Below, piece after piece: positions 32,361 to 60,120 of a DNA stretch of 64,000 nt. Every line of letters begins with the position of its first letter. The first letter of the stretch is position 1. The DNA lies in the NCBI GenBank assembly GCA_028704635.1, contig JAQWFB010000002.1, positions 128,693-192,692 of the forward strand, read 5' to 3'. The stretch comes from Candidatus Shapirobacteria bacterium. Its GTDB lineage: Bacteria > Patescibacteriota > Microgenomatia > UBA12405. The notes under the pieces were generated by a model that was not told the DNA's origin, ran no database searches, and worked only from the letters and a program-made list of their open reading frames with translations. The position numbers were made by a program, and so were the translations under genes.

Positions 32361-32400
32361 TCTCCCTTGTCAAAGGGAGATTTAGAGGGATTGGTTTTTA
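32361..32400. repeat. Palindromic element (short form), intergenic
   Basis: TCTCCCTTGTCAAAGGGAGA + TTTAGAGGGATTGGTTTTTA. Confidence 0.7.
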
Positions 32401-35400
32401 TTTTCCCAACTCCACTCCCATCCTAATATCCTTATTCAATTTCTGATTAAACAATAATTTTCCCCCCACCATACTCGCCTGTGGTTCTACTTGTAATGGT
32501 TGCCAATCTCTTGGAAAAGATACCAACGTCACTAATCCAGTATCTCCAAATCCAGATTGTTTCTGGACATAGCTTATATAAGAAAATTTATCTTTACCTG
32601 TCAAATTATTTGCACTAGAATATTTTATTTCCACTGTTTCTTTACTCAAAATTGGTACTGCCACCAAAAACCCCACTTCTTTTTTTCCATTAATTTCCTT
32701 GATTCTAATTTCATCAGCTGTATAAATTTTTCTTGAATTAGTCTTATCATCAATCACACTAATTTGCGATAAATTAACATCAATTGGTAAATAAATTCTT
32801 AAATAATTTTTATATTCGCCACCCGGAAAATCATTACTTTTAGCCATATTTTCATAATTAACCTTCAATGTCCTCTCCACTAAACTTTCATTAATATCTA
32901 CTACCTGTTCCATACTTCTAGATAAAAAATAATTTGTTTTATTCACCCCAAAATTAGAATCCACTACAAATAAATAATCTGAAAAACAATTCTCTTTTGT
33001 ACATTTTCCTTGATACATTGTTCCATCCCATCCTAAATCAGCCGCCAATTTAGCTATTTTACCATTATTAAAAGCCAATTGGATTTCATTTTTTTCCAAT
33101 AAATCCACTAAAGAAGAAACTAATTCTAATTGTTGTTTTGCTTTTAATCCCTTTATTTCTTCAAACATCTGACTTCCTAAAGTTCCTAAAAAACTCGCCT
33201 TCTGGGTCGATCCCGGAAAAAATTTACTTTCCGAATAATATTCCGCTTGTTCATATAAATTATCCTTAGTAATTTTTTCTTTAAAATCGGTCACATTAAT
33301 TTCTCCAATCACCCCTACAATTGCTTTCGCCACTGCCAAATTAATTCCAATCACCCCATCTACTTTTTTATTAATTTCTTGACTCAAAAACCATTGAATA
33401 TCTGCTGAAGCCTTTACAAAATCCGGATTCCAATTAGCATCTCTCATAAACCAGTTTGCTTCTCCCAAATAATTTTTTATTTCTATTGGCGGTTCCACAT
33501 GTCCTTTTAACTGACCATCAGCTTCATAAACATCTTTCACTTCAAAATTCAAAAGTTTTCCATTTTGAAAACTCAAAATTGCATAACTTCCAATAAATCC
33601 TCCTGTTGCTCGCAATTCCGCTTCATTTTGAAGTAACACTAAATATTCCCTCTTTCTTCCATCTAAACCCAACATTTCTGGCAAAATTTTCATTCCTTTC
33701 GACACTAAATTCAATTTTTCTTTTATTTCCTTTAAACCTTGGGCTTCTTTTTGCAAAGATATTCTCCATTTTGCCGGCATCCAGCTATAATCACCATTCA
33801 GTCTTGCTAAAACCAAACCCAACTCATTATCAAAATTAATTAAATATTCCTCTTCTTTACTTAACTCGTCAGAAAAATTTATTTCTCTTTCTTTAAAAAT
33901 TGCCTGGCTTATTAAATCCGCACTTTGACTAATTACAATCGCATCTTTTTCTAAATTTAAAACATCTTCCCCTATTTTAAGTAACGTTTGATAATTTCTA
34001 ACTATTTTAAATTTATTCAACCCCCAATCATCAATTTGCTGATCAATATCTTTGATCCTAATTAAATTTTTATCCGCCAAAATTTCTACCTGCTTATATT
34101 TTTTCGCTTCAATTAAAGTTACATTTTCTTTAATATTATTACAAGCCAAAACTGTTAATATCGTCCATTTTACAGGCAATATTAATAACAAAACTACTAA
34201 AAATAAAACCCACCACTTCAATTTGGCCGAAATTTTCAAAACTGGCATTTTTCTTTTCGGTTTTACTTCCACTTCTTTTTTAATCCCTCCATTTTCAAGG
34301 GAGGGAAATTCCGCTACAGCGGAATGGGTGGGTTTTATTATTTCATCTTCAAAACTATCGTCAAATTCCTCAATAATTTTTTTTGAATTCTCCCTTTCTT
34401 TAAGGGGAGATGTCTCCGCAATAGCGGAGACAGAGGGGTTTTGAATTGACTTTACTTTCTCAACCTCCAACCCCATCTTTTTTTGCTTATAAAAACTTTC
34501 TATCTCTTCCATCGGCTCCTCGTTCTTAATCTTAACTTCTTCTTGTTCATCTTCCACTACCACTTCCATCTTTCTTTTATTAACTTCCTTTTTAATCGGT
34601 TCCGACTCTTTTTTTATAGCCTCCCCTGTTTCAGCCAAAGGCTGATCGGCCTCTGGTCGAAAGGGAGGTTTGGAGGGTTTTTTAGGTTTTCTACTTTCTT
34701 CATCAGCCCTCGAAAAAAAATATTGCAAAGTTTCTGTTATTCCACCTTTAAAATCACTTTTTGGCTCCCATCGTAATTTTCTTACTGACTCCCTTAGTCT
34801 TTCCTCATCGATTTTTTCAATTTCAATCTCCTTTTGCATCACTTTATACCTTGTCATTTTTGCCTCATCTATCAACACTTTTGCCACTTCCTCACTATTT
34901 GTTTCCTCCCCTAAAATCAAAAATTTCTCCTTCTCTGTTCCCGATAAAAAACTCGCTCTTAAAATTGCTTCAACCAAATCTTCGATTGCTAAAATTCTAA
35001 ATTTACTTTTTAAACTTGGTAACACCAAATTTTTATTAACTACCGCCAATTTTATTGCCTCTGCTAAAAAATTATTTTCATCCATTCCTGGACCATAAAC
35101 TCCCTCTGCCTCCACCATTCTCCAATTTAAATTTAAATCATCTAAATCATCTTTTAAAAATTCCGCTCTCTCTCTATCGTTCACACAAACTAAAGTAATT
35201 TTTTCCCCTTTAAACTGATCTGTTTTCCACAGGTTTTTATCTCCCAAAAAATCAAAAACATAATTAAATTTACCACTAACTTCCGACAAATCCATCAATA
35301 ATTCAAAATTCTTTATATCACTTAATCCTGCCACATATTCCCCTACCCCGACCACATTTATATCTTTATTTGATAATTCTTCCGCCAACTTTTTAGCCGC

Positions 35401-35448
35401 AAATTGATCTATCCCAATAATTAAAGCGTAAGGCAATGCCGGATTCAT
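32398..35448 (-). CDS. Large membrane-anchored DUF4012-domain protein (cell-envelope associated). It has an N-terminal Rossmann-like domain and a long low-complexity linker.
   Basis: The C-terminal domain carries the DUF4012 signature LLQNEAELRATGGFIGSYA. There is a single TM helix around aa 410. The linker region contains four in-frame palindromic elements (34284-34684). Confidence 0.6.
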   Translation of the reverse strand: MNPALPYALIIGIDQFAAKKLAEELSNKDINVVGVGEYVAGLSDIKNFELLMDLSEVSGKFNYVFDFLGDKNLWKTDQFKGEKITLVCVNDRERAEFLKDDLDDLNLNWRMVEAEGVYGPGMDENNFLAEAIKLAVVNKNLVLPSLKSKFRILAIEDLVEAILRASFLSGTEKEKFLILGEETNSEEVAKVLIDEAKMTRYKVMQKEIEIEKIDEERLRESVRKLRWEPKSDFKGGITETLQYFFSRADEESRKPKKPSKPPFRPEADQPLAETGEAIKKESEPIKKEVNKRKMEVVVEDEQEEVKIKNEEPMEEIESFYKQKKMGLEVEKVKSIQNPSVSAIAETSPLKERENSKKIIEEFDDSFEDEIIKPTHSAVAEFPSLENGGIKKEVEVKPKRKMPVLKISAKLKWWVLFLVVLLLILPVKWTILTVLACNNIKENVTLIEAKKYKQVEILADKNLIRIKDIDQQIDDWGLNKFKIVRNYQTLLKIGEDVLNLEKDAIVISQSADLISQAIFKEREINFSDELSKEEEYLINFDNELGLVLARLNGDYSWMPAKWRISLQKEAQGLKEIKEKLNLVSKGMKILPEMLGLDGRKREYLVLLQNEAELRATGGFIGSYAILSFQNGKLLNFEVKDVYEADGQLKGHVEPPIEIKNYLGEANWFMRDANWNPDFVKASADIQWFLSQEINKKVDGVIGINLAVAKAIVGVIGEINVTDFKEKITKDNLYEQAEYYSESKFFPGSTQKASFLGTLGSQMFEEIKGLKAKQQLELVSSLVDLLEKNEIQLAFNNGKIAKLAADLGWDGTMYQGKCTKENCFSDYLFVVDSNFGVNKTNYFLSRSMEQVVDINESLVERTLKVNYENMAKSNDFPGGEYKNYLRIYLPIDVNLSQISVIDDKTNSRKIYTADEIRIKEINGKKEVGFLVAVPILSKETVEIKYSSANNLTGKDKFSYISYVQKQSGFGDTGLVTLVSFPRDWQPLQVEPQASMVGGKLLFNQKLNKDIRMGVELGK
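34284..34338. repeat. Palindromic element inside the DUF4012 gene (encodes KPTHSAVAEFPSLENGG)
   Basis: TCCCTCCATTTTCAAGGGAGGGA + AATTCCGCTACAGCGGAAT + GGGTGGGTTTTAT. Confidence 0.8.
34389..34444. repeat. Palindromic element inside the DUF4012 gene (encodes QNPSVSAIAETSPLKE)
   Basis: TCTCCCTTTCTTTAAGGGGAGATG + TCTCCGCAATAGCGGAGA + CAGAGGGGTTTTG. Confidence 0.8.
34618..34684. repeat. Palindromic element, long variant, inside the DUF4012 gene (encodes KPSKPPFRPEADQPLAETGEA)
   Basis: CCTCCCCTGTTTCAGCCAAAGGCTGATCGGCCTCTGGTCGAAAGGGAGG + TTTGGAGGGTTTTTT. Related copy at 55144-55208. Confidence 0.8.
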
Positions 35449-37143: not shown

Positions 37144-37176
37144 TACCTATTTTATCTTAAAAAACAAAAGAAAAAG

Positions 37177-37223
37177 CCGCCCTGTCAAGGGAGGTGCCCC
37201 ACAAAGCGGGGCGGAGGGTTTAA
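37177..37223. repeat. Palindromic element, intergenic (between the flippase and the ligase-like gene)
   Basis: CGCCCTGTCAAGGGAGGTG + CCCCACAAAGCGGGG + CGGAGGGTTTAAAC. Confidence 0.8.
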
Positions 37224-38458
37224 ACCAACCCCAATACTAATACTAACAACCAAACGTTTTGTGGTAAGGTCAACCAATAATGATCAACCATTCCACTTAT
37301 AATCACTATTCCTAAAATTATTTTAAAAATCCAATTTATTTTTTTTCTAGAAAAATTTTCACTAAAAAACAAAAACATTAAAGATAACCCCAATATTCCA
37401 ATCTCACTCCAAGCCAATATTAAAACATTATGAACCGGTTGTAACCAAAAAATTCCATTATTTTTCTGAAACTCGGGTAATCTCACTAAAAAATTACCCA
37501 AACCTACTCCAAATAAAGATGATTCTTTTATCATTTTTAATCCAGCTACATTTAATTGAATTCTTTTTCCAATTCCATCAGAATCCCATCCGCCTAAAAA
37601 ATCAGACACTTGATATTCCATATTTACCAATCTCAATCCAAAAATTATCACTCCCAAAACCAATAATATTAAACCCACAATATTAACCTTATTTTTTATA
37701 TTTTTTAATAAAAACCAAAAAATTAAACCCAAAGTCAAAATCCAAATTGTTCTACTCCCCGAAACCATTATTCCCAAAAATCCAAACCAAAAAACCATCC
37801 ACCACCAAGTCTTATTTATTTTCTCTCTTAACCACCACCATAATAATAAACTCACTAATAAAAATCCTGCCAAACTATTTGGGTGAGAAAAAGTTCCATA
37901 AGCTCTAATTAAACCTTTTCCAAAAACTGACATTTGGGCAATTCCAATTGTATTAAAACTAAAACTTCTTTCCCCTAACCAATAAAAAATTCCATTTAAA
38001 CTTCCACTTTTAGCCATTTGGGCCATCGCCAATAAACTCTCTAAAATGATCCAACAGGGGATAATTTTTATCAAATTTTCCTTAACTAATATTTTATTTT
38101 TTCTAAAATAAAAAAACGTTATCAATAATTGAACCACCCTTAACCATTTATAAACAGCCACCCACGGATTCACCGCCATCAAAATATTTATCCCCACAAA
38201 CACCGCTATTAAAAAATATTTAAATTTAAAAATTTTAGAAAGTCGCCCTGTCAAGGGAGATGTCCGCAGGACAGAGGGTTTAATCCAATTAAAAATCAAA
38301 ACTACCCAAACCAAATCTAATAAATACAAAGTAGGGGATAAATAATCAATTCTAATTCCCATTAAATAACTCCACTCTGGCCAAAAATGTTTACCTAATT
38401 GGGTCGGAATTAAAAGCAAAAATAAAAATAACCACACAACCCAATATAACACAATCAA
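37220..38458 (-). CDS. O-antigen ligase-like (Wzy_C) membrane protein
   Basis: Polytopic protein with a Wzy_C-like loop motif GTFSHPNSLAGFLLVS. Contains an in-frame palindromic element (38243-38283). Confidence 0.5.
   Translation of the reverse strand: MIVLYWVVWLFLFLLLIPTQLGKHFWPEWSYLMGIRIDYLSPTLYLLDLVWVVLIFNWIKPSVLRTSPLTGRLSKIFKFKYFLIAVFVGINILMAVNPWVAVYKWLRVVQLLITFFYFRKNKILVKENLIKIIPCWIILESLLAMAQMAKSGSLNGIFYWLGERSFSFNTIGIAQMSVFGKGLIRAYGTFSHPNSLAGFLLVSLLLWWWLREKINKTWWWMVFWFGFLGIMVSGSRTIWILTLGLIFWFLLKNIKNKVNIVGLILLVLGVIIFGLRLVNMEYQVSDFLGGWDSDGIGKRIQLNVAGLKMIKESSLFGVGLGNFLVRLPEFQKNNGIFWLQPVHNVLILAWSEIGILGLSLMFLFFSENFSRKKINWIFKIILGIVIISGMVDHYWLTLPQNVWLLVLVLGLV
38243..38283. repeat. Palindromic element inside the O-antigen-ligase-like gene (encodes KPSVLRTSPLTGRLS)
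   Basis: CGCCCTGTCAAGGGAGATG + TCCGCAGGAC + AGAGGGTTTAATC. Confidence 0.8.
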
Positions 38459-38984: not shown

Positions 38985-39019
38985 AGTCGCTATTTTAACA
39001 CGAAAATTTTAAAAAAATT

Positions 39020-39071
39020 GCTCCCTTGTCAAGGGGAGCTGTCCCGATTTATCGGGACTGAGGGGTTTTAT
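39020..39071. repeat. Palindromic element covering the last codons and stop of yidC
   Basis: GCTCCCTTGTCAAGGGGAGCTG + TCCCGATTTATCGGGA + CTGAGGGGTTTTATTT. Confidence 0.8.
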
Positions 39072-39846
39072 TTATTTTATCAACCACTAATTGTTGAACT
39101 ACCATAAAACCTGAGGTTATAAACCAATACAATAATAATCCCAATGAAAAACTCCAACCAATAAAAATTGTCATCAATGGCATAAAGTAAGTTGATTGAG
39201 TCCTCATCATCGCCATCATATCATCCTCTTTATCTTTAGTTGCATCAGCAATCGATTCGCTTACTTTTGGTGCCGGCATCATCAATTTAGCACTTAAATA
39301 TTGTAAAAACCCTGAACCAATCAAAAGTATTAATGGTAATATTAAACCCGAATCCATTCCTTGAGAAAATATCTTTGCTGGAGTCTGTACTAAATCAGAA
39401 CCAAAAAAACTCATATCAAATTTAAAATTTTGATCAATTCTAAAAGACTGAATTAAATTACTATTAATCTTTTCTAAAGGAACTTTCCCTTCAGAAAAAA
39501 GGCTCACCATATTAAAAGCATAGAAAAATAAAAGTAGCACCGCTATTTGAATAATCTGAGGCAAACAACCAGACATCGGGTTAACTCCTTCTTGTTTGTA
39601 AAGATCCATTTGGGCTTTAGCTAAAGCTTGTTTATCTTTTCCAAATTTCTCTTTTAGTTTATTTAGTTTTGGCTGTAACTCTCTTATTTTTTGGGCCGAT
39701 TTCAAACTTGGCATTACCAGTGGTAATAAAACTAATCTAATTATCACTGTCACTATAATTATGGCCAATCCAAAATTACCAATCATATAATAAACAGCAA
39801 ACAAGGCATTTACAAACGGGGCTAGAAATAAATTCATATCGTTCAT
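39049..39846 (-). CDS. yidC: Membrane protein insertase YidC/Oxa1 (short form)
   Basis: 265-aa polytopic protein following yidD. The last six codons and the stop lie inside a palindromic element. Confidence 0.85.
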   Translation of the reverse strand: MNDMNLFLAPFVNALFAVYYMIGNFGLAIIIVTVIIRLVLLPLVMPSLKSAQKIRELQPKLNKLKEKFGKDKQALAKAQMDLYKQEGVNPMSGCLPQIIQIAVLLLFFYAFNMVSLFSEGKVPLEKINSNLIQSFRIDQNFKFDMSFFGSDLVQTPAKIFSQGMDSGLILPLILLIGSGFLQYLSAKLMMPAPKVSESIADATKDKEDDMMAMMRTQSTYFMPLMTIFIGWSFSLGLLLYWFITSGFMVVQQLVVDKINKTPQSR

Positions 39847-43603: not shown

Positions 43604-44035
43604 TTAGTCTTTAACTCTAAATTCAATTTCATGGTTAGGTGGATTTATATCTTTACTTATTATCCATTTATTAATCAATTCTTTTATTTCTTCCTGATTT
43701 TCACTTTTTGAAACATAAACCACCAAAGTCATATTTTTAATATAATGACTAATTTTAAATCGATCAGTTTCGTAAGGTAGGCTCTCCCATAATGGGTGAG
43801 TTGTTAAATAATCATCAGATTCCTTTTTATTCTGTTTCACTTCTTCTTCATTTGGATTAATTAACTCTTCTCCCAGCTCTGAAGCAGTTTTGGTCGGAAT
43901 CGGAGATATTGTAATTTGATTGATTGTTTCATTTATCTTATTATTCTTATTTTGTTCCCAAAACAATAACCAAAAGATTAAAACTAATAAAACAACACCA
44001 ATTATTATCAATATTATTTTTTTTAAATTTGACAT
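43604..44035 (-). CDS. Small signal-anchored hypothetical protein
   Basis: 143 aa with an N-terminal TM helix. It is the last gene of the minus-strand T4SS-like operon. Confidence 0.45.
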   Translation of the reverse strand: MSNLKKIILIIIGVVLLVLIFWLLFWEQNKNNKINETINQITISPIPTKTASELGEELINPNEEEVKQNKKESDDYLTTHPLWESLPYETDRFKISHYIKNMTLVVYVSKSENQEEIKELINKWIISKDINPPNHEIEFRVKD

Positions 44036-45969
44036 TAGTTACAATTCCATACTATCGCATTTTTTCCTCTAATATAATCATCAATATTATCTCCAGCCAT
44101 ATTTCTAATTCCTCCTCTACCATCCCAATTAGCTTCAGATAATACAAAACTTCTATCTGTCCTTAATACCGACAACACTTGTATATGGTGATAACTTGTT
44201 GGGAAATGAATAAAATCACCGGCACCAGCTTGGGTTGAACTAACTTCAGCACATACATTGTTTCCATACCACCAATATGATCTTCCTATTGTTCCTTGAC
44301 GTAATTTTTGATTAGTCGCTTGAGCAAAAATAATACATTGAAGATTGCCAGAACTAGAGGTTCCGTTGATTCCAATAGAACTGTCTATTGTTTGAATAAA
44401 AAAATTTTTATTAAAACCAGATATTGGTGTCCAATTATTAATACTGTTTTTAACAAACCCCCAATTTCCAGAATTAACATTTTTTACTCCCAAATTATTC
44501 AAATAAAAAACCAAATTACAGGCATTACTTTGATTACAATCCTCAATAAATTGCGGGCTGGATATGTTTGAAGTTAAACTTGAATCATCATAAACACTTT
44601 TGGGTGGCACTAAACTTGAAACCGAATTTCCCAACAACATCTGGTATCCAAATAACCCCCCAAAAACCAAAAGTAATATTGGCCCCACTGCCGCCGCCGA
44701 TATCGCTCCAATTAAAAGAAACGGCAAACCCACCACAAACATCCCACCACCAATAATTGCTCCACCTACTTTTCCAAAATTTTCTTCTAAACCTTTTTTA
44801 ATTCCTATTCCCAGTTTTTCCGCTATTTTACTAACTGCATTTTTTAACATTTTAGCCGCCGCCGCCACCGCTACCACAATCGCCCCTATTCCAGTTGCCG
44901 AAACTGCTGCTGCCCCAGCTGCGGTTACTGCTCCTGCCGCCGCCGCAGTACCAGTCGTTGCTGCTGCTTTAACTCCACCACCTAAAATTCCACTTAAAAC
45001 TGTGGAAATTCCTTTTTGAAATCCTTGTTCCGCTATTACCCCTAAAGAATTTTTTGCAAACTCACCCACTGCCTGATTTCCAATTTTAGTTACCAATTTT
45101 TGACCAGCCCCAGACATTGTCTTGTTTAGCCATCCTCCCGTCAATTTATCCACTCTTCCATACCAACCTAAATAACCTTGAGTTTTAGAAAATAAATTAC
45201 TCACACCTTGATCATTAAAACCAGAAATTACATTCTCAAATGACCGTGTCTCTTTTATATTTCCTGGCAAATTAACGTTTTTTAAAATACCCTTAATTGA
45301 TTCATGTTTATTTTTAATCCCTTTTACTTCTTCCGGCTTTTTAGTTAAAAAATTAGTCACTCCTCTTAAATCAGTCCAAGCATTTTCCAGCTTACCTGGA
45401 CTATATGTTTGGTTATTGGCTTGTAGTGCCTCGTCTTTATGCTCATCAATTATACTTTCACTGAAATATATTTCCGAAACTAATTTACCATATGCCCTCA
45501 CATTATTCGATTCTTCTGCCTTCAAATCGGGATTCAATTTTTTAGTTTCTTCTAATAGTTTTTTTTCAAAAACTTCCTTTTTAAATTCATTTACTTCACC
45601 TATGTTTTCTTCTTTCCACCTATCAATTTCAATTTTTATTTTTTTTACCTCAATTTCCGTTCCTTGCTTGTCTTCCACTATTAAATTTTTAGAAATCACT
45701 TCTATTAGATCTTTTATTTCTTCTCCACTGGTTTTTACTTCTTCTTCTCCAATAATAGATTTAATTTTAGATTCAAGTTCATTTTTTAAATTATCATCTC
45801 CATTCAAATTTTTCGTTATTTTTTCACTTACTTCTACTACTTTCTGTTCAACCGGATTTTTATTTTTTCTGTAATCATCTATATTAAAAACTTTTACACC
45901 ACCAGAAAAATTATCTTGATCAATATCTTGTAAAGCTGAACTTCCGTCCGTTCTATTTGCCATTACCAA
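44035..45969 (-). CDS. Membrane-anchored protein with a C-terminal CHAP-like amidase/peptidase domain (T4SS-associated cell-wall hydrolase, putative)
   Basis: An N-terminal coiled-coil region is followed by a Gly/Ala-rich TM region. The C-terminal 170 aa carry CHAP-like motifs: Cys (NACNLVFYL...SGNW), His (GDFIHF) and SEANWDG. Confidence 0.5.
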   Translation of the reverse strand: MVMANRTDGSSALQDIDQDNFSGGVKVFNIDDYRKNKNPVEQKVVEVSEKITKNLNGDDNLKNELESKIKSIIGEEEVKTSGEEIKDLIEVISKNLIVEDKQGTEIEVKKIKIEIDRWKEENIGEVNEFKKEVFEKKLLEETKKLNPDLKAEESNNVRAYGKLVSEIYFSESIIDEHKDEALQANNQTYSPGKLENAWTDLRGVTNFLTKKPEEVKGIKNKHESIKGILKNVNLPGNIKETRSFENVISGFNDQGVSNLFSKTQGYLGWYGRVDKLTGGWLNKTMSGAGQKLVTKIGNQAVGEFAKNSLGVIAEQGFQKGISTVLSGILGGGVKAAATTGTAAAAGAVTAAGAAAVSATGIGAIVVAVAAAAKMLKNAVSKIAEKLGIGIKKGLEENFGKVGGAIIGGGMFVVGLPFLLIGAISAAAVGPILLLVFGGLFGYQMLLGNSVSSLVPPKSVYDDSSLTSNISSPQFIEDCNQSNACNLVFYLNNLGVKNVNSGNWGFVKNSINNWTPISGFNKNFFIQTIDSSIGINGTSSSGNLQCIIFAQATNQKLRQGTIGRSYWWYGNNVCAEVSSTQAGAGDFIHFPTSYHHIQVLSVLRTDRSFVLSEANWDGRGGIRNMAGDNIDDYIRGKNAIVWNCN

Positions 45970-45981
45970 ATTATATCAACC

Positions 45982-48570
45982 TTAAACAATCCCGTCTCCA
46001 AATAATTTATCATAATCCATTTTATTGTCTTCTTTTTTAATTTCTCCCATATTTTTTTGCCCTCCATTTTCAAGGGAGGGTGACCCCGCAGCTGCGGGGG
46101 CGGGTGGGTTTATTTCAAACACCGGCTGCGGTTTTCTCGCTAATTGAGGTGGCTGAGGTATTCGCTGTTCCTCAGTTTTAATAAAAATTGGTTTTTTTAT
46201 CTCATTTTGGTCAACCGCTACTTCTGGTCTTTTAAATAATACTGATTCAGTTTTCATTTCCGGTTTCACTTCCATCATTTCAATTTTCCTGTCAATAGAA
46301 TTATTTTGTGGCAACACTACTGGAGGTTTTTCATTAACTTCCACTGTTTTTAAATCCAAGACATCAACTTTAGGGGTAAAATTAACAGTTTTAATTTCTG
46401 TAGTTTTTAAAGGTTCCTCTTTATCAAATGGAACTAGTCCTACAGCTGTCGAGACAGAGGGGTTCTGAACTGGTTTTACTTCAATCGGCTTAATTTGAGG
46501 CTCCACTACCGGTTTAACTTGAACCGGAATTTTGTTTTCAATCTCTACCGTTTTTATTTCTGGAATATTAATTTTTGGTGCTACTTCAACTTTTTGCGGT
46601 TCAACAGGTTTATTTATTGGAGGTAATGTCGATGGAAATGTTTTGAAATCTTCCTTGTCTCGGACATAATCCGATCCGCCTGTGGCGGAAAAAGGAGATT
46701 TAGAGGGATTTTGAAATGGTTTCGTTTCTATTGGCTTAATTGGTGGCTTCATTCCATTATTTGGCTTTTGATCACTCAAAAAACTTTGCTTTTTTAAGAT
46801 ATCTTCCGGATTTGAAGTAATCAAATTATGTTCATCCACCGAAGCAATTATTTGAATTGCCACATGATTTTGACCAGCAAAAAAGATTCCTTCACCTTTA
46901 CTTGCTGATAATAATAATTGCTTTTCTCCATCACTCAAATAAAATACCTCACCAATTTGATCAATCGCCGCACTATGCTGTTTTAATAAAATTTGAATTG
47001 AGCTATTAGTCACTATTTCTTTACCATAAGCAGTCCTTAAAAAGTCATCCACGTCCTGAGTTATTGTTGTTACTCCCAAATAATATTTTCTTCCTCTTTT
47101 AACAATTCCTCTCAAAAATTCCGCCGAATCATCATGTTGCATTAAATACCAGGCTTCATCCACCACTAATATTCTTTTTTTCAATGTTTTTTTAACCATT
47201 GTCCAGATATAATCCAAAATAATTTGCATTGCCACTGGTCTTAATGCGTCCTCTAAGTTTCTAATTCCAAAAACCACAAATTTATTCGTTAAATTAACTG
47301 TTGTTTTTTGATTAAAAATCCCCGAAAACGACCCTTTAATATATTTTTCCAGTCTGGCTGCCAACCCTTTGGCCTTTTCATCCTCCATCCCAATCAAAGA
47401 TTTGTATAAATCTTCAATTAATGGTGGTTCTTTGTCTTGAGTTGCTGGATCAGGAGTAATCCCTTTCATTTTATAAGCATCCATCATTGCTCGATCCATA
47501 ATCGATTCTTCAATTGGATCCATCTCACCCAACATCACTTTTAATAATTTATGTAAAGATAAAATTTTAGTATTTAAACCATTTTCACCTTGTTCTTCAG
47601 CTAAAGTTAAATCAAACGGATTAATTTTAGAACCTTCACCATAACCGAAGGCAATATATTGACCGCCAGAATTATCACACAATTCCTTATATTCATTTTC
47701 TGGGTCAATTACAATAATATCTGTCCCCATCATTAATGATCGAAGAACTTCCAATTTAATCAAATAAGACTTACCAGCCCCAGCCATAGCAAAAACCACT
47801 GAGTTATAATTTGGCATTGAAAATCTATCAAAAATTACCAACGATCCATTATGCATATTAATTCCATACATTATTCCCTGATCATCCGATAAATCTGATG
47901 ACACAAAAGGGAAAGTAGTTGCCAAAGAAGTCGTATCCATATTTCGACTAATTGCCAATCTGTCTTGGCAAATCGGCAAAGTTGACACAAACCCATCTTC
48001 CATTTGCAACGTTGCCTTTTTACTTATAATCAACAATGCCCCCAAGGCTGCTTCTAAATTTTTATTCACTCTATCCAATTCCACCACTGAATCCGCTGTT
48101 ATTGTCACATAAAGTCCAAATTGAAAAAATCTTTCTTCACCTTTAACCAAATTAGCTTGTAAATTTAACGCATCCTCTAATTTTGCCTGTGTTGCCGGAT
48201 TAATCAATCGACCCCTTTGAATATCAGTGCTCAGCTCGGCTTCCATTTCTGTAATTTTTCGTCGAAGATCATCTAAAACTTCCTTTCCATCGGTTGGATA
48301 AATAAACATTGAAATATTTAAAGAAGAATCAAAATTAATCAACGATGATAGCCAATTAATTCCTACAAATCTTGGATATGCCGCCACAAATAAAGTTCGA
48401 TAATATTTATTATCAATTCTAATATGATTAAAATCCACTTCTAGAGCCGATGGGGCAATTATATCCTTAGTTGTTACCAACCCTTGAGTAAATTCTCTTT
48501 TATTAGGATCCACTATCGGTGTTGGTTCTGAATTATTTGCTGTTGTATTTTTTTTATTAAAAAATTTCAT
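45982..48570 (-). CDS. VirB4/TrbE-family type IV secretion ATPase with a roughly 260-aa proline-rich C-terminal extension
   Basis: Walker A (VVFAMAGAGKSYLIK), Walker B (RILVVDEAWYLMQ) and overall VirB4 architecture. The tail contains three in-frame palindromic elements. Confidence 0.8.
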   Translation of the reverse strand: MKFFNKKNTTANNSEPTPIVDPNKREFTQGLVTTKDIIAPSALEVDFNHIRIDNKYYRTLFVAAYPRFVGINWLSSLINFDSSLNISMFIYPTDGKEVLDDLRRKITEMEAELSTDIQRGRLINPATQAKLEDALNLQANLVKGEERFFQFGLYVTITADSVVELDRVNKNLEAALGALLIISKKATLQMEDGFVSTLPICQDRLAISRNMDTTSLATTFPFVSSDLSDDQGIMYGINMHNGSLVIFDRFSMPNYNSVVFAMAGAGKSYLIKLEVLRSLMMGTDIIVIDPENEYKELCDNSGGQYIAFGYGEGSKINPFDLTLAEEQGENGLNTKILSLHKLLKVMLGEMDPIEESIMDRAMMDAYKMKGITPDPATQDKEPPLIEDLYKSLIGMEDEKAKGLAARLEKYIKGSFSGIFNQKTTVNLTNKFVVFGIRNLEDALRPVAMQIILDYIWTMVKKTLKKRILVVDEAWYLMQHDDSAEFLRGIVKRGRKYYLGVTTITQDVDDFLRTAYGKEIVTNSSIQILLKQHSAAIDQIGEVFYLSDGEKQLLLSASKGEGIFFAGQNHVAIQIIASVDEHNLITSNPEDILKKQSFLSDQKPNNGMKPPIKPIETKPFQNPSKSPFSATGGSDYVRDKEDFKTFPSTLPPINKPVEPQKVEVAPKINIPEIKTVEIENKIPVQVKPVVEPQIKPIEVKPVQNPSVSTAVGLVPFDKEEPLKTTEIKTVNFTPKVDVLDLKTVEVNEKPPVVLPQNNSIDRKIEMMEVKPEMKTESVLFKRPEVAVDQNEIKKPIFIKTEEQRIPQPPQLARKPQPVFEINPPAPAAAGSPSLENGGQKNMGEIKKEDNKMDYDKLFGDGIV
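46059..46111. repeat. Palindromic element inside the virB4 tail (encodes PAPAAAGSPSLENGG)
   Basis: CCCTCCATTTTCAAGGGAGGGTG + ACCCCGCAGCTGCGGGGG + CGGGTGGGTTTATTTC. Confidence 0.8.
46438..46468. repeat. Partial palindromic element inside the virB4 tail (encodes VQNPSVSTAVGLV)
   Basis: TCCTACAGCTGTCGAGA + CAGAGGGGTTCTGAAC. Confidence 0.65.
46674..46722. repeat. Partial palindromic element inside the virB4 tail (encodes FQNPSKSPFSATGGSD)
   Basis: TCCGCCTGTGGCGGA + AAAAGGAGATTTAGAGGGATTTTGAAATGG. Confidence 0.65.
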
Positions 48571-49274
48571 TACAATTGTCCTCCTGTAACCACCGGTGCT
48601 TGATAATTTACATTCTGAACCTTTTGATTAATGGCCGTTTCTTCATTGTAAGTTCGATAAAAAAGATCAATTATTTCCTTATTACTCAAAGGTTTTATCT
48701 CTAATCCTAATCTTGAAAAAAGCCTTAATAAATGATCTCTTTTTGGCTCCAAATTAGCCTTGGCCTTTTCTAAAATATATTCCTTAGTAAAGGGTAATTC
48801 TTGACTCTTCCCTTGTGATAAAAACATTTTTACTCCTTTAACTCCACCAGTTTTAATTCCCAATTCTAAAGATGAAAAAGTAATAGCAATATAAAATGAT
48901 TTTGATAAAATATCACTTTTTTTAACTGTTTCTTCAATAAATTTTCTGTATTGACTAATTCTCTCTTTAAGACGCGGATTTAATTGTTTTTCTTCCATGT
49001 TCTGTAAATTTTTTAAATAAGAACTTACATCTTTAGCATGTGATTGAATAATAATTTGTATTGGAAAATTTAAAGAATTTATAATTCCTCCATATGCAAA
49101 GACTAATGCCGACTGTTCTGGTTCTGATAATAAATCGAAATTAACCGATGATACGCTTAAAACCGTCGAACAAGACCCATCCTTCATAATCACAATCCCA
49201 TCAATTACATCTTCTATTGGTAAATGTTCCTGGGTACTTCCTTTAATGGCAATTTTTAATGGATCTGTTGACAT
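48570..49274 (-). CDS. Hypothetical soluble protein, T4SS-associated by position
   Basis: 234-aa ORF whose stop/start overlaps virB4. Confidence 0.45.
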   Translation of the reverse strand: MSTDPLKIAIKGSTQEHLPIEDVIDGIVIMKDGSCSTVLSVSSVNFDLLSEPEQSALVFAYGGIINSLNFPIQIIIQSHAKDVSSYLKNLQNMEEKQLNPRLKERISQYRKFIEETVKKSDILSKSFYIAITFSSLELGIKTGGVKGVKMFLSQGKSQELPFTKEYILEKAKANLEPKRDHLLRLFSRLGLEIKPLSNKEIIDLFYRTYNEETAINQKVQNVNYQAPVVTGGQL

Positions 49275-49277
49275 ATT

Positions 49278-50189
49278 TTAATTATTAGAAATAATCCTAA
49301 TTGGTTGAACTATTTGATTTTTTAAATCTATATTAACTCTATCAAAATTATAACCATCTTTCTCTGCAATTATTAGATATCTACCATTTGCTAAAGGTGT
49401 CGTTGTTTTAAACTGACCTAAAGAATTTGTTTTCAACACTCTCGAAGGATTTCCATTTTCATCTTGGACCTCAATAATTACCCCGTCAATTATTTTCCCT
49501 TCGATATTTGTTGCCATACCTACCACCACATTAGGTATTTCCGGAATATCTGGCATTGGAATAGAACCGAAAACCGCCTTTCCTGTTGCTCCTAGCTTTT
49601 CTGTTTTAAGATTCAAATTTGCCTTAGTATCTCTCCAATCTTCCATTTTTATTTCACTTTTTTCATCTGGTTTTTCATCTATTACCGGTTTCTGTTCTAC
49701 GATTACCTTCTTAACCTCAGACTTACTCTCAAGTTCTATATTAATTTTCTTCTTAATTTCTTTCTCTTTTGCTCCAATTACACTTATTTCATCTTTTATT
49801 TTATTTCCCAAAAGATTAGATTTAACCCTATTAACCATCACCATATCCTCTTCATTTTGTTTTATGTTTTTGGTTAAATCTAAATCAAGCCAATTTTTAT
49901 CAGCTTTTCTTCGGTAAATATAAATTGTTGGTGAATAAATTGCTTTCAAAAAAGAAAGAACCCATACCTCTAATGGTCTATCCTCAAAAGGTACAAAAGC
50001 CAAAGCTAATCCACCTCCAGCTAAAAACAACATTAATGGCCATTTAACTAAAATTATTAACTTAGTTGAATTAACCATTATTGCCAAAATTATTCCTACA
50101 GCCGCCTTTAAAAATTGTTTTAATGTCATGTCTCCCACGAGTTTAAATTCATAGGATGTTATTTGTTGTGGAATCGGGTGTTGTTCCAT
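49278..50189 (-). CDS. Membrane protein (two N-terminal TM helices, VirB3/PrgI-like position) with a C-terminal beta-sandwich (carboxypeptidase-regulatory-like) domain
   Basis: 303 aa. The N-terminus is hydrophobic and the C-terminus has GKIIDGVIIEVQDENGNP...GRYLIIAEKDGY. It lies immediately upstream of virB4. Confidence 0.45.
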   Translation of the reverse strand: MEQHPIPQQITSYEFKLVGDMTLKQFLKAAVGIILAIMVNSTKLIILVKWPLMLFLAGGGLALAFVPFEDRPLEVWVLSFLKAIYSPTIYIYRRKADKNWLDLDLTKNIKQNEEDMVMVNRVKSNLLGNKIKDEISVIGAKEKEIKKKINIELESKSEVKKVIVEQKPVIDEKPDEKSEIKMEDWRDTKANLNLKTEKLGATGKAVFGSIPMPDIPEIPNVVVGMATNIEGKIIDGVIIEVQDENGNPSRVLKTNSLGQFKTTTPLANGRYLIIAEKDGYNFDRVNIDLKNQIVQPIRIISNN

Positions 50190-54255: not shown

Positions 54256-55134
54256 ATGCCAGAACTTCCCGAAGTTGAGGTCGTCCGACTTTTTTTAGAC
54301 AACCATTTAATTGGTAAAACTATTTCTAATTTAGAGATTTTAAATAAAAAATCCTTCACTGGCGATCCAAAAAAAATAATTAATCAAAAAATCACCAAAA
54401 CTTCTCGTATTGGCAAACAGCTCTCAATTCATTTGAAAAATAATTTAATTCTTCTTTTTCATCTCAAAATGACCGGCCAAATTATATACAGTCCCCTTTT
54501 TTCAAGGGGGATGCCCGCAGGGCAGGGGGTTTCAACATTTGGTCATCCCACTCCCAAAGAAGATAAATCAACTTTACCCAATAAATCCACTCGTCTCGTT
54601 TTTACTTTTTCCAATGGTTCTAAATTATTTTTTAACGATCAACGCAAATTTGGCTGGGTTAAACTTTTTACCTCTAACGAACTCGATGACTCTCAAAAAA
54701 ATCTTGGTCTTGATATTTTAAGTTCCAAATTTACCTCTAAATATTTTTATCAGCAAATTCAGAATACTACTCGTCCTATTAAAGTAGTTTTACTCGATCA
54801 ATCTAAATTTGCCGGCATTGGCAATATTTATGCCAACGATGCCCTCTTTTTATCCAAAATTAATCCACAAACACCTTCAAATAAAATTAGTTTTAAAAAA
54901 GCTTTGCTTCTACACCATTTTTTAATCCAAATTATGACCGAGTCTATTAAAGCCGGTGGTTCCACTGCCAAAGATAATAAATATATTCACCCCGATGGTT
55001 CCAGTGGTCAACATCAATTTAATTTTCAAGTTTACCAACGAGCTGGCGAACCTTGTTTAGTTTGTCAAACTCCAATTAAACGAATCACTCTCGCCGGCCG
55101 CGGCACCTTCTATTGCCCCAAATGTCAAAAATAA
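54256..55134 (+). CDS. mutM: Formamidopyrimidine-DNA glycosylase (Fpg/MutM)
   Basis: Starts MPELPEVE with the catalytic Pro2. Shows the H2TH region and a C-terminal zinc finger (CLVCQTPIKRITLAGRGTFYCPKCQ). An in-frame palindromic element lies at 54491-54534. Confidence 0.9.
   Translation: MPELPEVEVVRLFLDNHLIGKTISNLEILNKKSFTGDPKKIINQKITKTSRIGKQLSIHLKNNLILLFHLKMTGQIIYSPLFSRGMPAGQGVSTFGHPTPKEDKSTLPNKSTRLVFTFSNGSKLFFNDQRKFGWVKLFTSNELDDSQKNLGLDILSSKFTSKYFYQQIQNTTRPIKVVLLDQSKFAGIGNIYANDALFLSKINPQTPSNKISFKKALLLHHFLIQIMTESIKAGGSTAKDNKYIHPDGSSGQHQFNFQVYQRAGEPCLVCQTPIKRITLAGRGTFYCPKCQK
54491..54534. repeat. Palindromic element inside mutM, in frame (encodes SPLFSRGMPAGQGVSTF)
   Basis: GTCCCCTTTTTTCAAGGGGGATG + CCCGCAGGG + CAGGGGGTTTCAAC. 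Confidence 0.85.
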
Positions 55135-57713: not shown

Positions 57714-58262
57714 ATGACCACTCCAAAAGAAATTGAAAAATTTATTAATAAAACTAAAGAACTCGAAAAAGGCCATCAACTCGATCTTTCTTCTGGAGAA
57801 GATTTATCCATCGCTATCATGAATCTTATCGGTATTGAAGAACATATGTTTTTCACTTCCCAAAAATTAGGCGATACTAAATATCTCGACGTTTTAAACA
57901 CTGCTCGGGAAATGAGAAAAGAATTAATGAAAAAAATCGTCAAGGAAGGGCAGGGAGAAGTTTGGTGTACCAGCAAACATCTTTTATCTGCTTCCATGCG
58001 CCTTATGGAAGTTGGCACCAAAAGCTTAACTAAAGGCGATCAAAAAGAAGCCAATGATTACTTTAAAAAATCTTTTGATTTATATAATCTTTTTTGGGGT
58101 TTAAATTTGGGTTTAATTGACTCCTCTGTAGAGACGTTGCGCGCAACGTCTCTACTTTCTAATAAAAATCTACCCCTCAAAGAAAAACCTATTCCCGAAA
58201 AAAGTCTAATGGGTACCATCAGCCAAACTATCGGTAAAATTCTCGACTGTTGTCGTGAATAA
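57714..58262 (+). CDS. Hypothetical soluble protein
   Basis: 182-aa ORF, start-stop adjacent to the previous gene. Confidence 0.4.
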   Translation: MTTPKEIEKFINKTKELEKGHQLDLSSGEDLSIAIMNLIGIEEHMFFTSQKLGDTKYLDVLNTAREMRKELMKKIVKEGQGEVWCTSKHLLSASMRLMEVGTKSLTKGDQKEANDYFKKSFDLYNLFWGLNLGLIDSSVETLRATSLLSNKNLPLKEKPIPEKSLMGTISQTIGKILDCCRE

Positions 58263-58715
58263 TTAATCCCTAAAAATTAACAGCATTCCCACTAGAATCA
58301 AAATAATTGGCCAAAACATATCCCAATCAATCATTTTTGGAAATATTTGATTCCAAATAGCGGTCAGTCCTATTAAAATTAATACCACTCCTAAAATATT
58401 AATTCTTTTTGTTCTTTTTATTTTAGTTTCAAGTTTAATTTCTTTAGCCATTGATTTTGTTTTATCTTTAACTTCATCAGCAAACTCCTTAATTTTCTCC
58501 TCTTTATTTTGTTTTCCAGAACTATTCTGATTTACAGAAGGCACCACTAACCATAAAATTAAATAGATTAATACTCCACTTCCGCCACCAATTGCCAATA
58601 AAATAAAAATAATTCTAACTAATGAGCCGTCAATTTGAAAATATTCAGCCAATCCACCACAAACACCCGCAACTATATTATCGTCAACTGATCTAAATAA
58701 TTTTTTTGTTTCCAT
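58263..58715 (-). CDS. PspC-domain membrane protein
   Basis: Shows the PspC signature LFRSVDDNIVAGVCGGLAEYFQIDGSLVRIIF, followed by TM helices. Confidence 0.65.
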   Translation of the reverse strand: METKKLFRSVDDNIVAGVCGGLAEYFQIDGSLVRIIFILLAIGGGSGVLIYLILWLVVPSVNQNSSGKQNKEEKIKEFADEVKDKTKSMAKEIKLETKIKRTKRINILGVVLILIGLTAIWNQIFPKMIDWDMFWPIILILVGMLLIFRD

Positions 58716-58717
58716 TA

Positions 58718-59362: not shown

Positions 59363-59499
59363 AAAATAAAAACTATTAATTATTAAAAAATTATTAAAAA
59401 TTTATTAAAAGATAACAAAATTCATTATATCACTAAGTTTTACTAATATTTATTACTAATTTTAATAATTTTTTAATAATTAAATAATAATATGGATTT

Positions 59500-60094: not shown

Positions 60095-60120
60095 TTTTTT
60101 GTAAGTATAATAAAGTATAA

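What the first reader, a model, noticed from the sequence alone, without database searches (positions are those of the whole stretch)
46059..46722. The VirB4-like ATPase carries a roughly 260-aa proline-rich C-terminal extension seeded by three palindromic-element copies
After the conserved VirB4 core, which ends around ...ILKKQSFLSDQ, the ORF continues through a low-complexity P/K/V/E-rich tail. This tail contains the element-derived peptides FQNPSKSPFSATGGSD, VQNPSVSTAVGLV and PAPAAAGSPSLENGG. VirB4 proteins do not normally have such a tail. The tail may have grown through repeat insertion and expansion.
Basis: partly seen in the sequence, partly recalled or inferred. Interest (0 to 1): 0.55.

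Follow-up and report, generated by a model that had tools for sequence, protein, structure and literature searches.

The report
Disordered VirB4 tail hosting hairpin repeats
A secretion-system motor protein (VirB4) of an ultra-small Shapirobacteria bacterium carries a conserved, floppy 270-residue tail. Small GC-rich hairpin repeats have been inserted into it in frame and are translated, but the tail is older than the repeats and was not built from them.

Summary
Window 45982..48570 (-) is one 862-aa ORF. A VirB4 (CD1110-family) core ends at about aa 585-590, followed by a 268-aa tail rich in P, K, V and E and predicted to be unstructured. Three copies of the window's GC-rich hairpin element lie in the tail, in frame:
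- A (46059-46114): canonical, 48 bits.
- C (46650-46715): composite subtype with intact hairpins.
- B (46414-46469): decayed.

The tail is ancestral to this Shapirobacteria VirB4 clade:
- 112 of the 120 best homologs have tails of 140-356 aa.
- The tails share a conserved motif block (KKPIFIKTEE..IPQPPQL..PQPVF) and a terminal DYDKLFGDGIV peptide.
- dN/dS is 0.12-0.26 for the tail and 0.04-0.12 for its last 68 non-element codons.
- 38 species have 137-371-aa tails with no element hit in the tail or in 687 kb of flanks.

The elements are later insertions that are present in some relatives and absent in others. Empty and filled sites are both seen. Together they make up roughly a quarter of this tail.

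The closest precedent is the in-frame Rickettsia palindromic elements. Here the element is a short, terminator-like, strand-biased repeat in a CPR genome. My inference is that the tail is a flexible tether that presents conserved docking peptides. The partner is unknown.

The parts
45982..48570 (-). VirB4-like ATPase ORF, 862 aa (stop codon 45982-45984)
   Evidence: ORF list. Pfam P-loop_TraG, E 1e-30. NCBIfam conju_CD1110, 382.4 bits against cutoff 325.
46801..48570 (-). Conserved VirB4 core, aa 1 to about 590
   Evidence: Family model and 4AG5 alignments end at aa 572-585. dN/dS is about 0.03 against five relatives.
45985..46788 (-). C-terminal tail, aa 595-862 (268 aa), rich in P/K/V/E and predicted to be unstructured
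   Evidence: Composition. AF2 pLDDT about 30-37 with no secondary structure except two 4-residue helices. Homologous tails in 112 of the 120 best homologs. dN/dS 0.12-0.26.
46059..46114 (+). Element copy A. Canonical double hairpin, antisense to the gene. Encodes INPPAPAAAGSPSLENGGQ. Sits in the spacer between the PQPVF motif and the terminal motif.
   Evidence: CM 48.2 bits, E 2.5e-15. RNA fold -22.5 kcal/mol with two hairpins. The same spacer is 8-16 aa and AT-rich in L010, L019-L021, L023, L024, L028 and L075.
46414..46469 (+). Element copy B, decayed. Encodes VQNPSVSTAVGLVPFDKEE.
   Evidence: CM 9.4 bits, E 0.38. 87% identity over 31 nt to the copy at 34389-34444. No stable fold, z +0.8. 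Shared with L001, where it is partly deleted.
46650..46715 (+). Element copy C. Composite subtype with an outer stem and two inner hairpins. Encodes FQNPSKSPFSATGGSDYVRDKE. The 78-nt indel relative to L001 is 46642-46719. It is flanked by the direct repeat TTTTGAAAT at 46641-46649 and 46709-46717.
   Evidence: Alignment with the copies at 34610 and 55135, with compensatory stem changes. Fold -21.8 kcal/mol, z -2.6. Absent from L001, L002 and L007. Coordinates.
46117..46248 (-). Conserved tail motif block, aa 775-818: ESVLFKRPEV...KKPIFIKTEEQRIPQPPQLARKPQPVF
   Evidence: Invariant F796, E801, Q806, P807, Q809 and F818 in 54 homologs. An IPQPPQ-like match (one mismatch allowed) in 68 of the 75 complete tails listed. 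dN/dS 0.04-0.12 for the last 68 non-element codons.
45985..46023 (-). Conserved C-terminal peptide, aa 850-862: KMDYDKLFGDGIV
   Evidence: Invariant Y853 and F857; nearly invariant K850, D854, G858, G860 and I861. Present in distant element-free tails, for example L015, L018, L021, L068 and L069. Found only in VirB4 ORFs within the loci.
46525..46578 (-). Clade-level conserved motif PKINIPEIKTVEIENKIP, aa 665-682
   Evidence: Conserved in the close relatives.
48570..49274 (-). Separate ORF (234 aa) corresponding to the VirB4 N-terminal domain (TraC/TrsD-like). Its stop overlaps the VirB4 start.
   Evidence: NCBIfam hits to TrsD and to CD1110 model positions 3-122. PF26593 TraC-like in the syntenic loci.

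Best explanation
The gene encodes the VirB4 ATPase of the chromosomal T4SS-like cluster of a Candidatus Shapirobacteria (CPR/Patescibacteria) genome. The cluster resembles the conjugation machinery of single-membrane bacteria and lies near dnaA.

The 268-aa C-terminal tail is an ancestral feature of this clade. It is an intrinsically disordered linker rich in P, K, E and V. It carries conserved short motifs: the F-x-x-P-E-V / KKPIFIKTEE / IPQPPQL / PQPVF block and the terminal DYDKLFGDGIV peptide.

The variable spacers between those motifs tolerate insertions. Copies of the genome's dispersed GC-rich hairpin element have landed there antisense to the gene. Elsewhere this element mostly sits at or over the stop codons of minus-strand genes and looks like an intrinsic terminator. 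Two of its three antisense reading frames are free of stop codons in canonical copies (my reading of the sequence). The copies in the tail lack a U-tract. They are therefore read through and translated, adding 17-26 residues each.

The copies differ in number, site and subtype between species, and they decay with time. B is decayed. A and C still fold.

Shown here: ORF continuity, the core boundary, tail conservation and purifying selection, presence/absence of the elements at orthologous sites, and tails without elements.

Inferred: the tail works as a flexible tether or spacer that presents the conserved peptides to a partner. This is analogous to the FtsZ C-terminal linker with its terminal peptide, or the SSB tail. 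The partner is unknown.
For: Identity and boundary.

Taxonomy and context:
- Homologs are named Ca. Shapirobacteria.
- Five distinct loci (six loci, L001-L006) show the same gene order: PrgI-like, TraC-like, VirB4, peptidoglycan hydrolase, and (where the contig extends that far) dnaN and dnaA.
- This matches the Patescibacteria T4SS described in PMC12102498.

The tail is ancestral and under selection:
- 112 of 120 homologs have tails of 140-356 aa.
- Invariant tail residues in 54 sequences.
- Motifs are present in distant tails.
- dN/dS is 0.03 for the core, 0.12-0.26 for the tail and 0.04-0.12 for the terminal block.

Disorder: AF2 gives no structure and pLDDT in the 30s.

The elements are secondary insertions:
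- Thirty-eight loci have tails but no element hits.
- Site A is empty (8-16 aa, GC 0.25-0.40, folding energy 0 to -3.6 kcal/mol) in L010, L019-L021, L023, L024, L028 and L075. Where filled it is 24-96 aa with GC 0.36-0.51.
- Site C is empty in L001, L002 and L007.
- Relatives carry canonical copies at the same sites.

Element family:
- 23 CM hits with E < 1e-3, all on the + strand.
- Most lie at the 3' ends of genes.
- Hairpin 2 covaries.
- No minus-strand terminator is predicted inside the tail.

In-frame insertion is general in this genome:
- Fpg has a 12-aa insertion in the window and in L003, absent from L001, L005 and L006.
- There are three copies in the linker of the 1016-aa DUF4012 protein.
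Against: - The function of the tail is not tested by anything here, and no partner was identified.
- The AF2 model is poor overall (mean pLDDT 48). Low confidence in the tail is therefore weaker evidence of disorder than it would be with a deep alignment.
- The element detector was trained on this window's copies. It could miss divergent element families in the 'element-free' species. Some of those tails do have GC-rich islands, for example L080.
- Only 7-22 kb per species was scanned, not whole genomes.
- Copies A and C keep near-perfect hairpins. That could mean selection on nucleic-acid structure rather than mere tolerance.
- At site A the orthologous copies differ far more than the flanks do. 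Simple insert-then-decay does not fully explain this.
Confidence: 0.72

Rival explanations
1. The tail originated from palindromic-element insertions and grew by their repetition and expansion, so that most of it is element-derived.
For: There are three element copies in 804 nt, about a nine-fold enrichment over the window average. Tails with hits are longer. Some relatives carry four or more copies (L013 and L074). A possible fourth decayed remnant lies at 46276-46305: SIDRKIEM here against SLDREAKM in relatives.
Against: Thirty-eight species have homologous tails of 137-371 aa without element hits. The conserved motif blocks are AT-rich, not element-like, and under purifying selection. There are no tandem repeats. 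The elements make up about 25% of this tail.
Confidence: 0.06
2. The tail is an annotation or assembly artefact. The true protein stops near aa 600, and the downstream frame is open by chance or through a sequencing error.
For: GC-rich elements in an AT-rich genome carry few stop codons, so long open frames could arise by chance. The window is a single assembly.
Against: The ORF stays open through 137-371 codons to the same terminal motif in more than 70 independent assemblies, despite many indels, all of which preserve the frame. dN/dS is well below 1. L001 and L002, from different samples, have the same tail length and the same sequence in all three segments compared. Copy C's peptide recurs in P0004.
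Confidence: 0.02
3. The in-gene hairpins are kept for a function at the RNA or DNA level. Examples would be mRNA stabilisation, translational pausing between tail modules, partial attenuation, or a protein-binding site. Their translation would then be incidental.
For: Copies A and C fold at about -22 kcal/mol, against -3 to -6 for control tail segments. Hairpin stems covary across copies. Site A is occupied in most close relatives by different-looking copies that still form hairpin 1. Orientation is uniform.
Against: Copy B and several orthologous copies have lost pairing. Sites are empty in many species with otherwise conserved tails. There is no U-tract or predicted terminator on the mRNA strand. 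Shuffle z-scores are modest, -2.1 and -2.6.
Confidence: 0.15
4. The similarity runs the other way. QNPSVP..PLDKRE-like peptides are protein-level repeats selected in the tail, and the DNA resemblance to the intergenic hairpins is convergent or derived from coding sequence.
For: The same peptide types recur across many homologs' tails. The three subtypes occur in the same order in a second protein.
Against: The family is mostly intergenic or at stop codons. It is defined by covarying stems rather than by a peptide. It is read in different frames and in both orientations: Fpg carries the sense orientation, and KPT is read at 34284-34338 where copy A reads NPP. It forms sharp GC spikes. It shows clean presence/absence at the DNA level.
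Confidence: 0.04

Closest known systems
Rickettsia palindromic elements (RPEs) inserted in frame into protein-coding genes (Ogata et al. 2000; summarised in PMC10969869)
   Same: A dispersed palindromic repeat family found both between genes and, in frame, inside unrelated genes. The copies are translated and tolerated, and they are polymorphic between related genomes. The host has a reduced genome and depends on other organisms.
   Different: RPEs are about 100-150 bp. These elements are about 45-70 nt: GC-rich double or triple hairpins in a 34% GC genome. They look like intrinsic terminators at gene ends and are almost uniformly oriented. I made no sequence comparison with RPE families. The host phylum (CPR) is different.
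Terminator-like or extragenic palindromic repeats: pneumococcal SPRITE (PMC3049150) and enterobacterial REP/BIME
   Same: Short, repeated, stem-loop-forming elements concentrated just downstream of genes. They plausibly act as terminators or mRNA stabilisers. The stems covary.
   Different: Those families are described as essentially extragenic. Here about a third of the window's copies are inside ORFs and translated. No RAYT-like or other transposase was looked for.
Patescibacteria chromosomal T4SS related to the MPF-FATA class of monoderm conjugation systems, with VirB4 near dnaA (PMC12102498)
   Same: VirB4 of the CD1110 / monoderm type. PrgI-like and peptidoglycan-hydrolase neighbours. Adjacent to dnaN and dnaA. 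No relaxase among the genes called in the syntenic loci.
   Different: That paper does not mention a VirB4 C-terminal tail, disorder or embedded repeats: a term search found 0 hits for 'tail', 'disordered' and 'extension'. Here the N-terminal domain is a separate ORF.
Disordered linker plus conserved terminal peptide, as in the FtsZ C-terminal linker and peptide or the SSB linker and acidic tip. Proline-rich spacers of TonB and titin PEVK are similar in composition (my own knowledge).
   Same: A folded core, then a low-complexity linker of variable length, then a short, strongly conserved C-terminal peptide. P, E, V and K dominate the composition.
   Different: There is no sequence homology, and partner binding is untested. 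This is an analogy of architecture only.
C-terminal autoinhibitory helix of the VirB4 homolog TrwK (Pena et al. 2011, my own knowledge; not read here)
   Same: A precedent for the extreme C-terminus of a VirB4 ATPase having a regulatory role.
   Different: TrwK's segment is a short helix that is part of the fold, not a 270-residue disordered extension.

Membership tests
VirB4-like conjugal transfer ATPase, CD1110 family (NCBIfam NF045971) | Whole-protein score above the curated cutoff | tested here: met
   382.4 bits against cutoff 325, E 4.4e-114.
VirB4-like conjugal transfer ATPase, CD1110 family (NCBIfam NF045971) | P-loop ATPase C-terminal domain homologous to solved VirB4 structures | tested here: met
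   4AG5 E 2.3e-48 over aa 225-585. TrwK E 3.6e-4. Pfam P-loop_TraG and AAA_10. The Walker A-like GAGKS is readable in the sequence.
VirB4-like conjugal transfer ATPase, CD1110 family (NCBIfam NF045971) | Single polypeptide that includes the N-terminal domain (model positions 1 to about 178) | tested here: not met
   The match starts at model position 179. Positions 3-122 match the separate upstream ORF 48570..49274. The same split is seen in all syntenic relatives. This is a split-gene variant, not a reason to doubt homology.
VirB4-like conjugal transfer ATPase, CD1110 family (NCBIfam NF045971) | Protein ends shortly after the ATPase domain (model length 752) | tested here: not met
   The alignment reaches model position 734 of 752 at aa 572, and 290 further residues follow. 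The 4AG5 chain ends 4 residues after the aligned region.
T4SS gene cluster (Patescibacteria, MPF-FATA-like) | VirB4 together with other T4SS components | tested here: met
   PrgI-family hit on ORF 49278..50189, E 1.4e-5, just under the Pfam cutoff. A TraC-like ORF. NlpC/P60 or M23 hydrolase downstream in relatives. No VirD4 or relaxase among the called genes of the loci.
In-frame palindromic repeat insertions (RPE-like phenomenon) | A dispersed repeat family with conserved secondary-structure potential | tested here: met
   23 CM hits with E < 1e-3 in 64 kb. Covarying hairpin 2. At least 120 matching stretches in metagenomes.
In-frame palindromic repeat insertions (RPE-like phenomenon) | Copies inside ORFs that keep the reading frame, with empty orthologous sites in relatives | tested here: met
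   VirB4 sites A and C. Fpg 12-aa insertion.
In-frame palindromic repeat insertions (RPE-like phenomenon) | Sequence homology or size class of the Rickettsia RPE families (about 100-150 bp) | not tested
   No RPE sequences were compared. Element length here is about 45-70 nt, so it is not the same family. There was no Rfam match at gathering thresholds.
MITE (non-autonomous transposon) | Terminal inverted repeats and target-site duplications | tested here: inconclusive
   A 9-nt direct repeat, TTTTGAAAT, flanks copy C, and TTTTGAAT flanks 34389-34444. Removing the element plus one repeat would not keep the frame, and the other copies show no consistent duplication.
Intrinsic (Rho-independent) terminator | GC-rich hairpin followed by a U-tract on the transcribed strand | tested here: not met
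   For the three tail copies, no minus-strand terminator-like site was predicted in 45500-47000. Hairpin 1 of copy A is followed by CAAAAAAA. Intergenic copies, for example 37174-37225, do have CTTTTT after hairpin 1 on the minus strand.
Intrinsically disordered tether with terminal short linear motif | Low-complexity, structure-poor linker of variable length | tested here: met
   AF2 pLDDT 30-37 with no secondary structure. Composition and GRAVY -0.67. Tail length ranges from 104 to 424 aa across species.
Intrinsically disordered tether with terminal short linear motif | Conserved terminal peptide that binds a partner | not testable with these tools
   Conservation is shown. Binding and the identity of the partner cannot be tested here.

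The most novel reading that the evidence does not exclude
Shapirobacteria, and perhaps other CPR lineages, may host a previously undescribed family of mobile hairpin elements. The elements are short, terminator-like and strand-specific. Their orientation follows the sign of the local GC skew, as expected for movement through single-stranded DNA at the replication fork. They repeatedly colonise disordered segments of essential proteins in frame. In this way they would generate species-level length and sequence variation in the tail of the T4SS motor, which in turn presents conserved docking peptides to an unknown partner.
Probability: 0.3. Interest if true: 0.7.

Novelty: new variant of a known kind. 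Interest (0 to 1): 0.45.

Why it matters
In Saccharimonadia, T4SS genes have been identified as essential for epibiotic growth, according to the abstract of PMC12102498. How the Patescibacteria machine is assembled and what it moves are unknown.

A clade-wide disordered tail on its VirB4 motor ends in strongly conserved peptides. That points to an undescribed interaction surface, which can be tested directly by truncations and pull-downs.

Separately, translated terminator-like hairpin repeats in VirB4, Fpg and a DUF4012 protein extend the 'selfish DNA inside genes' phenomenon, known from Rickettsia, to a CPR genome. They also have practical consequences. They inflate protein lengths, create spurious similarity between unrelated proteins (shared QNPSVP / SLENGG peptides), and could mislead homology clustering and gene calling in CPR MAGs.

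Tried and rejected
- **Rfam scan of the window.** Only rRNA and tRNA matched. There is no family for the element.
- **Tandem Repeats Finder on the tail.** Nothing found, so there is no evidence of expansion by tandem duplication.
- **Tail-only phmmer against 1.84 billion representatives.** Only 12 hits, all short fragments matching the same tail region. This was uninformative about wider distribution. It also showed no full-length protein from another family carrying the tail.
- **AF2 of the full protein with a 54-sequence alignment.** The model is poor overall (pLDDT 48), so I ran no fold search. I used it only as weak support for disorder.
- **Searching for the tail motifs in other ORFs of 87 sequences (the window and 86 loci).** Apart from one 204-aa ORF carrying both motifs, which I did not examine, all matches were in VirB4 ORFs, so neighbours gave no clue to a partner.
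- **A clamp-binding reading of the terminal peptide.** DKLFG resembles QLxLF, and dnaN is adjacent. I considered this, but the motif lacks the leading Q and I could not test it, so I dropped it as speculation.
- **Target-site duplication for copy C.** A 9-nt flanking repeat exists, but excising the element plus one repeat would break the frame, and the other copies lack such repeats. This is left open.
- **The covariance model for B and C.** It barely detects them (E 0.38 and 0.79). Their membership rests on pairwise alignments to specific copies and on canonical copies at the same sites in relatives.
Full report
**What is there.** Window 45982..48570 on the minus strand is a single 862-aa ORF.
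- Pfam finds the TraG/VirB4 P-loop domain at aa 252-559.
- NCBIfam places the protein in the CD1110 family of VirB4-like conjugal ATPases: 382.4 bits against a cutoff of 325. The match covers aa 26-572, which is model positions 179-734 of 752.
- The solved C-terminal domain of Thermoanaerobacter VirB4 (4AG5) aligns to aa 225-585 and stops four residues before the end of that chain.
About 262-268 further residues follow.
- The missing N-terminal part of the family model matches the separate upstream ORF 48570..49274, whose stop overlaps the VirB4 start.

**The tail.**
- Residues 595-862 are 14.2% P, 12.7% K, 10.1% V and 9.7% E. They contain no W, H or C. GRAVY is -0.67.
- No tandem repeat is detectable in the DNA.
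- An AF2 model built on 54 homologs is poor overall (mean pLDDT 48). Still, parts of the core reach 70-86, while residues 601-862 stay near 30-37. The tail has no secondary structure except two four-residue helices, at 808-811 and 854-857.

**The three element copies.** The window has 34% GC and is littered with a GC-rich element. Read on the + strand it is a hairpin CCTCCC-TGTCAA-GGGAGG, then a second hairpin of variable sequence, then GGAGGGTTT.
- A covariance model built from 16 copies finds 23 matches with E < 1e-3, all on the + strand.
- The second stem covaries.
- Rfam has no such family.
- Copy A (46059-46114) is canonical: 48.2 bits, two hairpins, -22.5 kcal/mol.
- Copy C (46650-46715) scores poorly on that model. 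It aligns end to end with the composite copies at 34610 and 55135, which have an outer stem enclosing two small hairpins. Both inner stems are kept through compensatory changes. It folds at -21.8 kcal/mol, z -2.6.
- Copy B (46414-46469) has lost its pairing. It is 87% identical over 31 nt to the end of the copy at 34389-34444 and aligns with it along its whole length.
- The shared word AGAGGGRTTYTGAA occurs three times against 0.3 expected.
- Three copies in 804 nt is about nine times the window average, Poisson P 0.0046.
- The quoted peptides sit exactly on these copies.

**Is the tail made from the elements? No.** The organism is a Candidatus Shapirobacteria.
- Among the 120 best homologs (61-100% identity), 112 have a recognisable core end followed by a tail of 140-356 aa, median 194.
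- In a 54-sequence alignment the tail has invariant residues F796, E801, Q806, P807, Q809, F818, Y853 and F857. A dozen more are nearly invariant.
- These define a block, KKPIFIKTEE-x-IPQPPQL-x-KPQPVF, and a terminal peptide, KMDYDKLFGDGIV.
- I fetched 80 species-representative loci and scanned them with a profile of the element.
- Of 74 complete tails, 38 (137-371 aa, median 218) have no hit in the tail, even at E 10. They also have no significant hit anywhere in 687 kb of their loci.
- About a dozen of the tails listed contain no GC-rich island at all, about half of them in loci with no element hit anywhere.
- These tails still carry the IPQPPQ block and the DYDxLFGxGIV end.
One caveat applies: only 7-22 kb per species was scanned, and with a profile trained on this window.
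- Against five syntenic relatives, dN/dS is about 0.03 for the core, 0.12-0.26 for the non-element tail codons, and 0.04-0.12 for the last 68 non-element codons.
- The tail is therefore translated and constrained. This also disposes of the artefact explanation.

**The elements are later, polymorphic insertions.** DNA and peptide alignments of orthologous segments show both empty and filled sites.
- Site A is the spacer between PQPVF and MDYDKLFG. It is 8-16 aa with GC 0.25-0.40 and folding energy 0 to -3.6 kcal/mol in L010, L019-L021, L023, L024, L028 and L075.
- Where elements sit, that spacer is 24-96 aa with GC 0.36-0.51. It is 32 aa in the window.
- Copy C is a clean 78-nt (26-codon) indel relative to L001, L002 and L007. 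Other relatives have a canonical copy at the same place.
- Copy B is shared with L001 but is partly deleted there.
- Tails with hits are somewhat longer: median 256 aa against 202 aa, Spearman 0.34, p 0.003.
- So the elements add length, about 65-70 of the 268 residues here, but they did not found the tail.

**What the element is elsewhere.**
- Most window copies lie at or across the stop codons of minus-strand genes. On that strand, hairpin 1 is followed by CTTTTT, so they resemble intrinsic terminators.
- The tail copies lack a U-tract, and no minus-strand terminator is predicted there.
- Other in-ORF copies exist. There are three in the linker of a 1016-aa DUF4012 protein and one in a Wzy_C protein.
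- One, in the sense orientation, is in Fpg. There it is a 12-aa in-frame insertion present in the window and L003 but absent from L001, L005 and L006.
- This is the same phenomenon as the Rickettsia palindromic elements (PMC10969869). The element here is smaller and terminator-like, which recalls SPRITE (PMC3049150).

**How it most likely works.**
- Shown: an ancestral, constrained, structure-poor tail with conserved peptides, and hairpin elements inserted into its variable spacers, read through and translated.
- Inferred: the tail is a flexible tether or spacer that presents the motif block and the terminal peptide to a partner, in the way the FtsZ and SSB tails do.
- The motifs occur only in VirB4 ORFs within the window and the 86 loci searched, apart from one 204-aa ORF that I did not examine. 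The neighbours therefore give no clue to the partner.
- The main live alternative is that the hairpins inside the gene are kept for an RNA-level role. A and C still fold well, and site A is usually occupied by hairpin-forming sequence. Against this, B and several orthologous copies have decayed, and many species have empty sites.

**Context and novelty.**
- The cluster is PrgI-like, TraC-like, VirB4, peptidoglycan hydrolase, then dnaN and dnaA. It is syntenic in five distinct relatives' loci (six loci, L001-L006), although dnaN and dnaA lie beyond the end of the L006 contig.
- It matches the Patescibacteria T4SS described in PMC12102498. A term search of that paper found no mention of a VirB4 tail, disorder or extension.
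- I found no paper describing in-frame palindromic elements in CPR.
- I rate this as a new variant of a known kind, of moderate interest.

Noticed in passing
window 32398..35448 (-), elements at 34618-34684, 34389-34444 and 34284-34338: A 1016-aa protein has a DUF4012 domain at aa 599-734, and its N-terminal region looks epimerase-like to me. The linker carries three in-frame element copies. They are of the same three subtypes, and in the same order along the gene, as the VirB4 tail: composite, QNPSVS type, SLENGG type. Each is the closest window relative of its VirB4 counterpart. The sequence between the elements is not obviously homologous. I have no explanation for the matching order.
   Followed up: partly
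window 54491-54536, in Fpg ORF 54256..55134 (+): An element copy in the sense orientation makes a 12-aa in-frame insertion (YSPLFSRGMPAGQ) in the N-terminal domain of formamidopyrimidine-DNA glycosylase. It is also present in L003 and is absent from L001, L005 and L006. So folded housekeeping enzymes are hit too.
   Followed up: yes
window 38240-38285, in ORF 37220..38458 (-): An element copy lies inside the N-terminal region of a Wzy_C (O-antigen ligase-like) membrane protein and encodes IKPSVLRTSPLTGRL. I did not compare it with relatives.
   Followed up: no
whole window; loci L001-L086 and L087 onward: Strand bias is extreme. All 23 significant copies in the window are on the + strand. All strong hits in the VirB4 loci are antisense to VirB4. 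In 120 metagenome stretches, 168 of the 189 copies with a clear local GC skew have the orientation predicted from its sign. This is confounded with gene direction. It is also what movement through single-stranded DNA at the replication fork would give.
   Followed up: partly
window 1-64000, especially 58000-64000: GC skew on the + strand is strongly negative from 1 to about 60 kb and does not switch at dnaA (40739). The cumulative minimum is near 60 kb, next to AT-rich repeats at 59362-59491. The replication origin may therefore lie about 20 kb from dnaA.
   Followed up: no
window 48570..49274 (-) and 45982..48570 (-): VirB4 is split. Its N-terminal domain is a separate 234-aa TraC/TrsD-like ORF whose stop overlaps the ATPase start codon. 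The split is conserved in all syntenic relatives.
   Followed up: partly
window 46641-46649 and 46709-46717; also 34380-34387 and 34438-34445: Direct repeats flank two copies: TTTTGAAAT around copy C and TTTTGAAT around the copy at 34389-34444. They look like target-site duplications. The other copies lack them, and excising the element plus one repeat would not preserve the VirB4 frame.
   Followed up: partly
window 46276-46305: This may be a fourth, heavily decayed element remnant in the tail. TTTCCTGTCAATAGAA resembles hairpin 1 (CTCCCTGTCAAGGGAG). The peptide SIDRKIEM corresponds to SLDREAKM or TSIDPVSGRAGSEAKM in relatives, which have a GC-rich element at this position.
   Followed up: partly
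window 39018-39071, 37174-37225, 31985-32031, 16126-16182, 12751-12805, 1185-1237: Several minus-strand genes, for example YidC at 39049..39846, end inside or right at an element. The last few codons and the stop codon of those genes are therefore element-derived.
   Followed up: partly
L013 and L074, VirB4 tails (spacer between PQPVF and MDYDKLFG): In these species the terminal spacer has grown to 80 and 96 aa, with several stacked element-like segments. This site is a recurrent insertion hot spot.
   Followed up: partly
window 44035..45969 (-): The 644-aa protein downstream of VirB4 has no Pfam hit here. Its orthologs carry NlpC/P60 hits, or M23 in L001. It has a long Gly/Ala-rich hydrophobic middle region. 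It is probably the cluster's peptidoglycan hydrolase.
   Followed up: no
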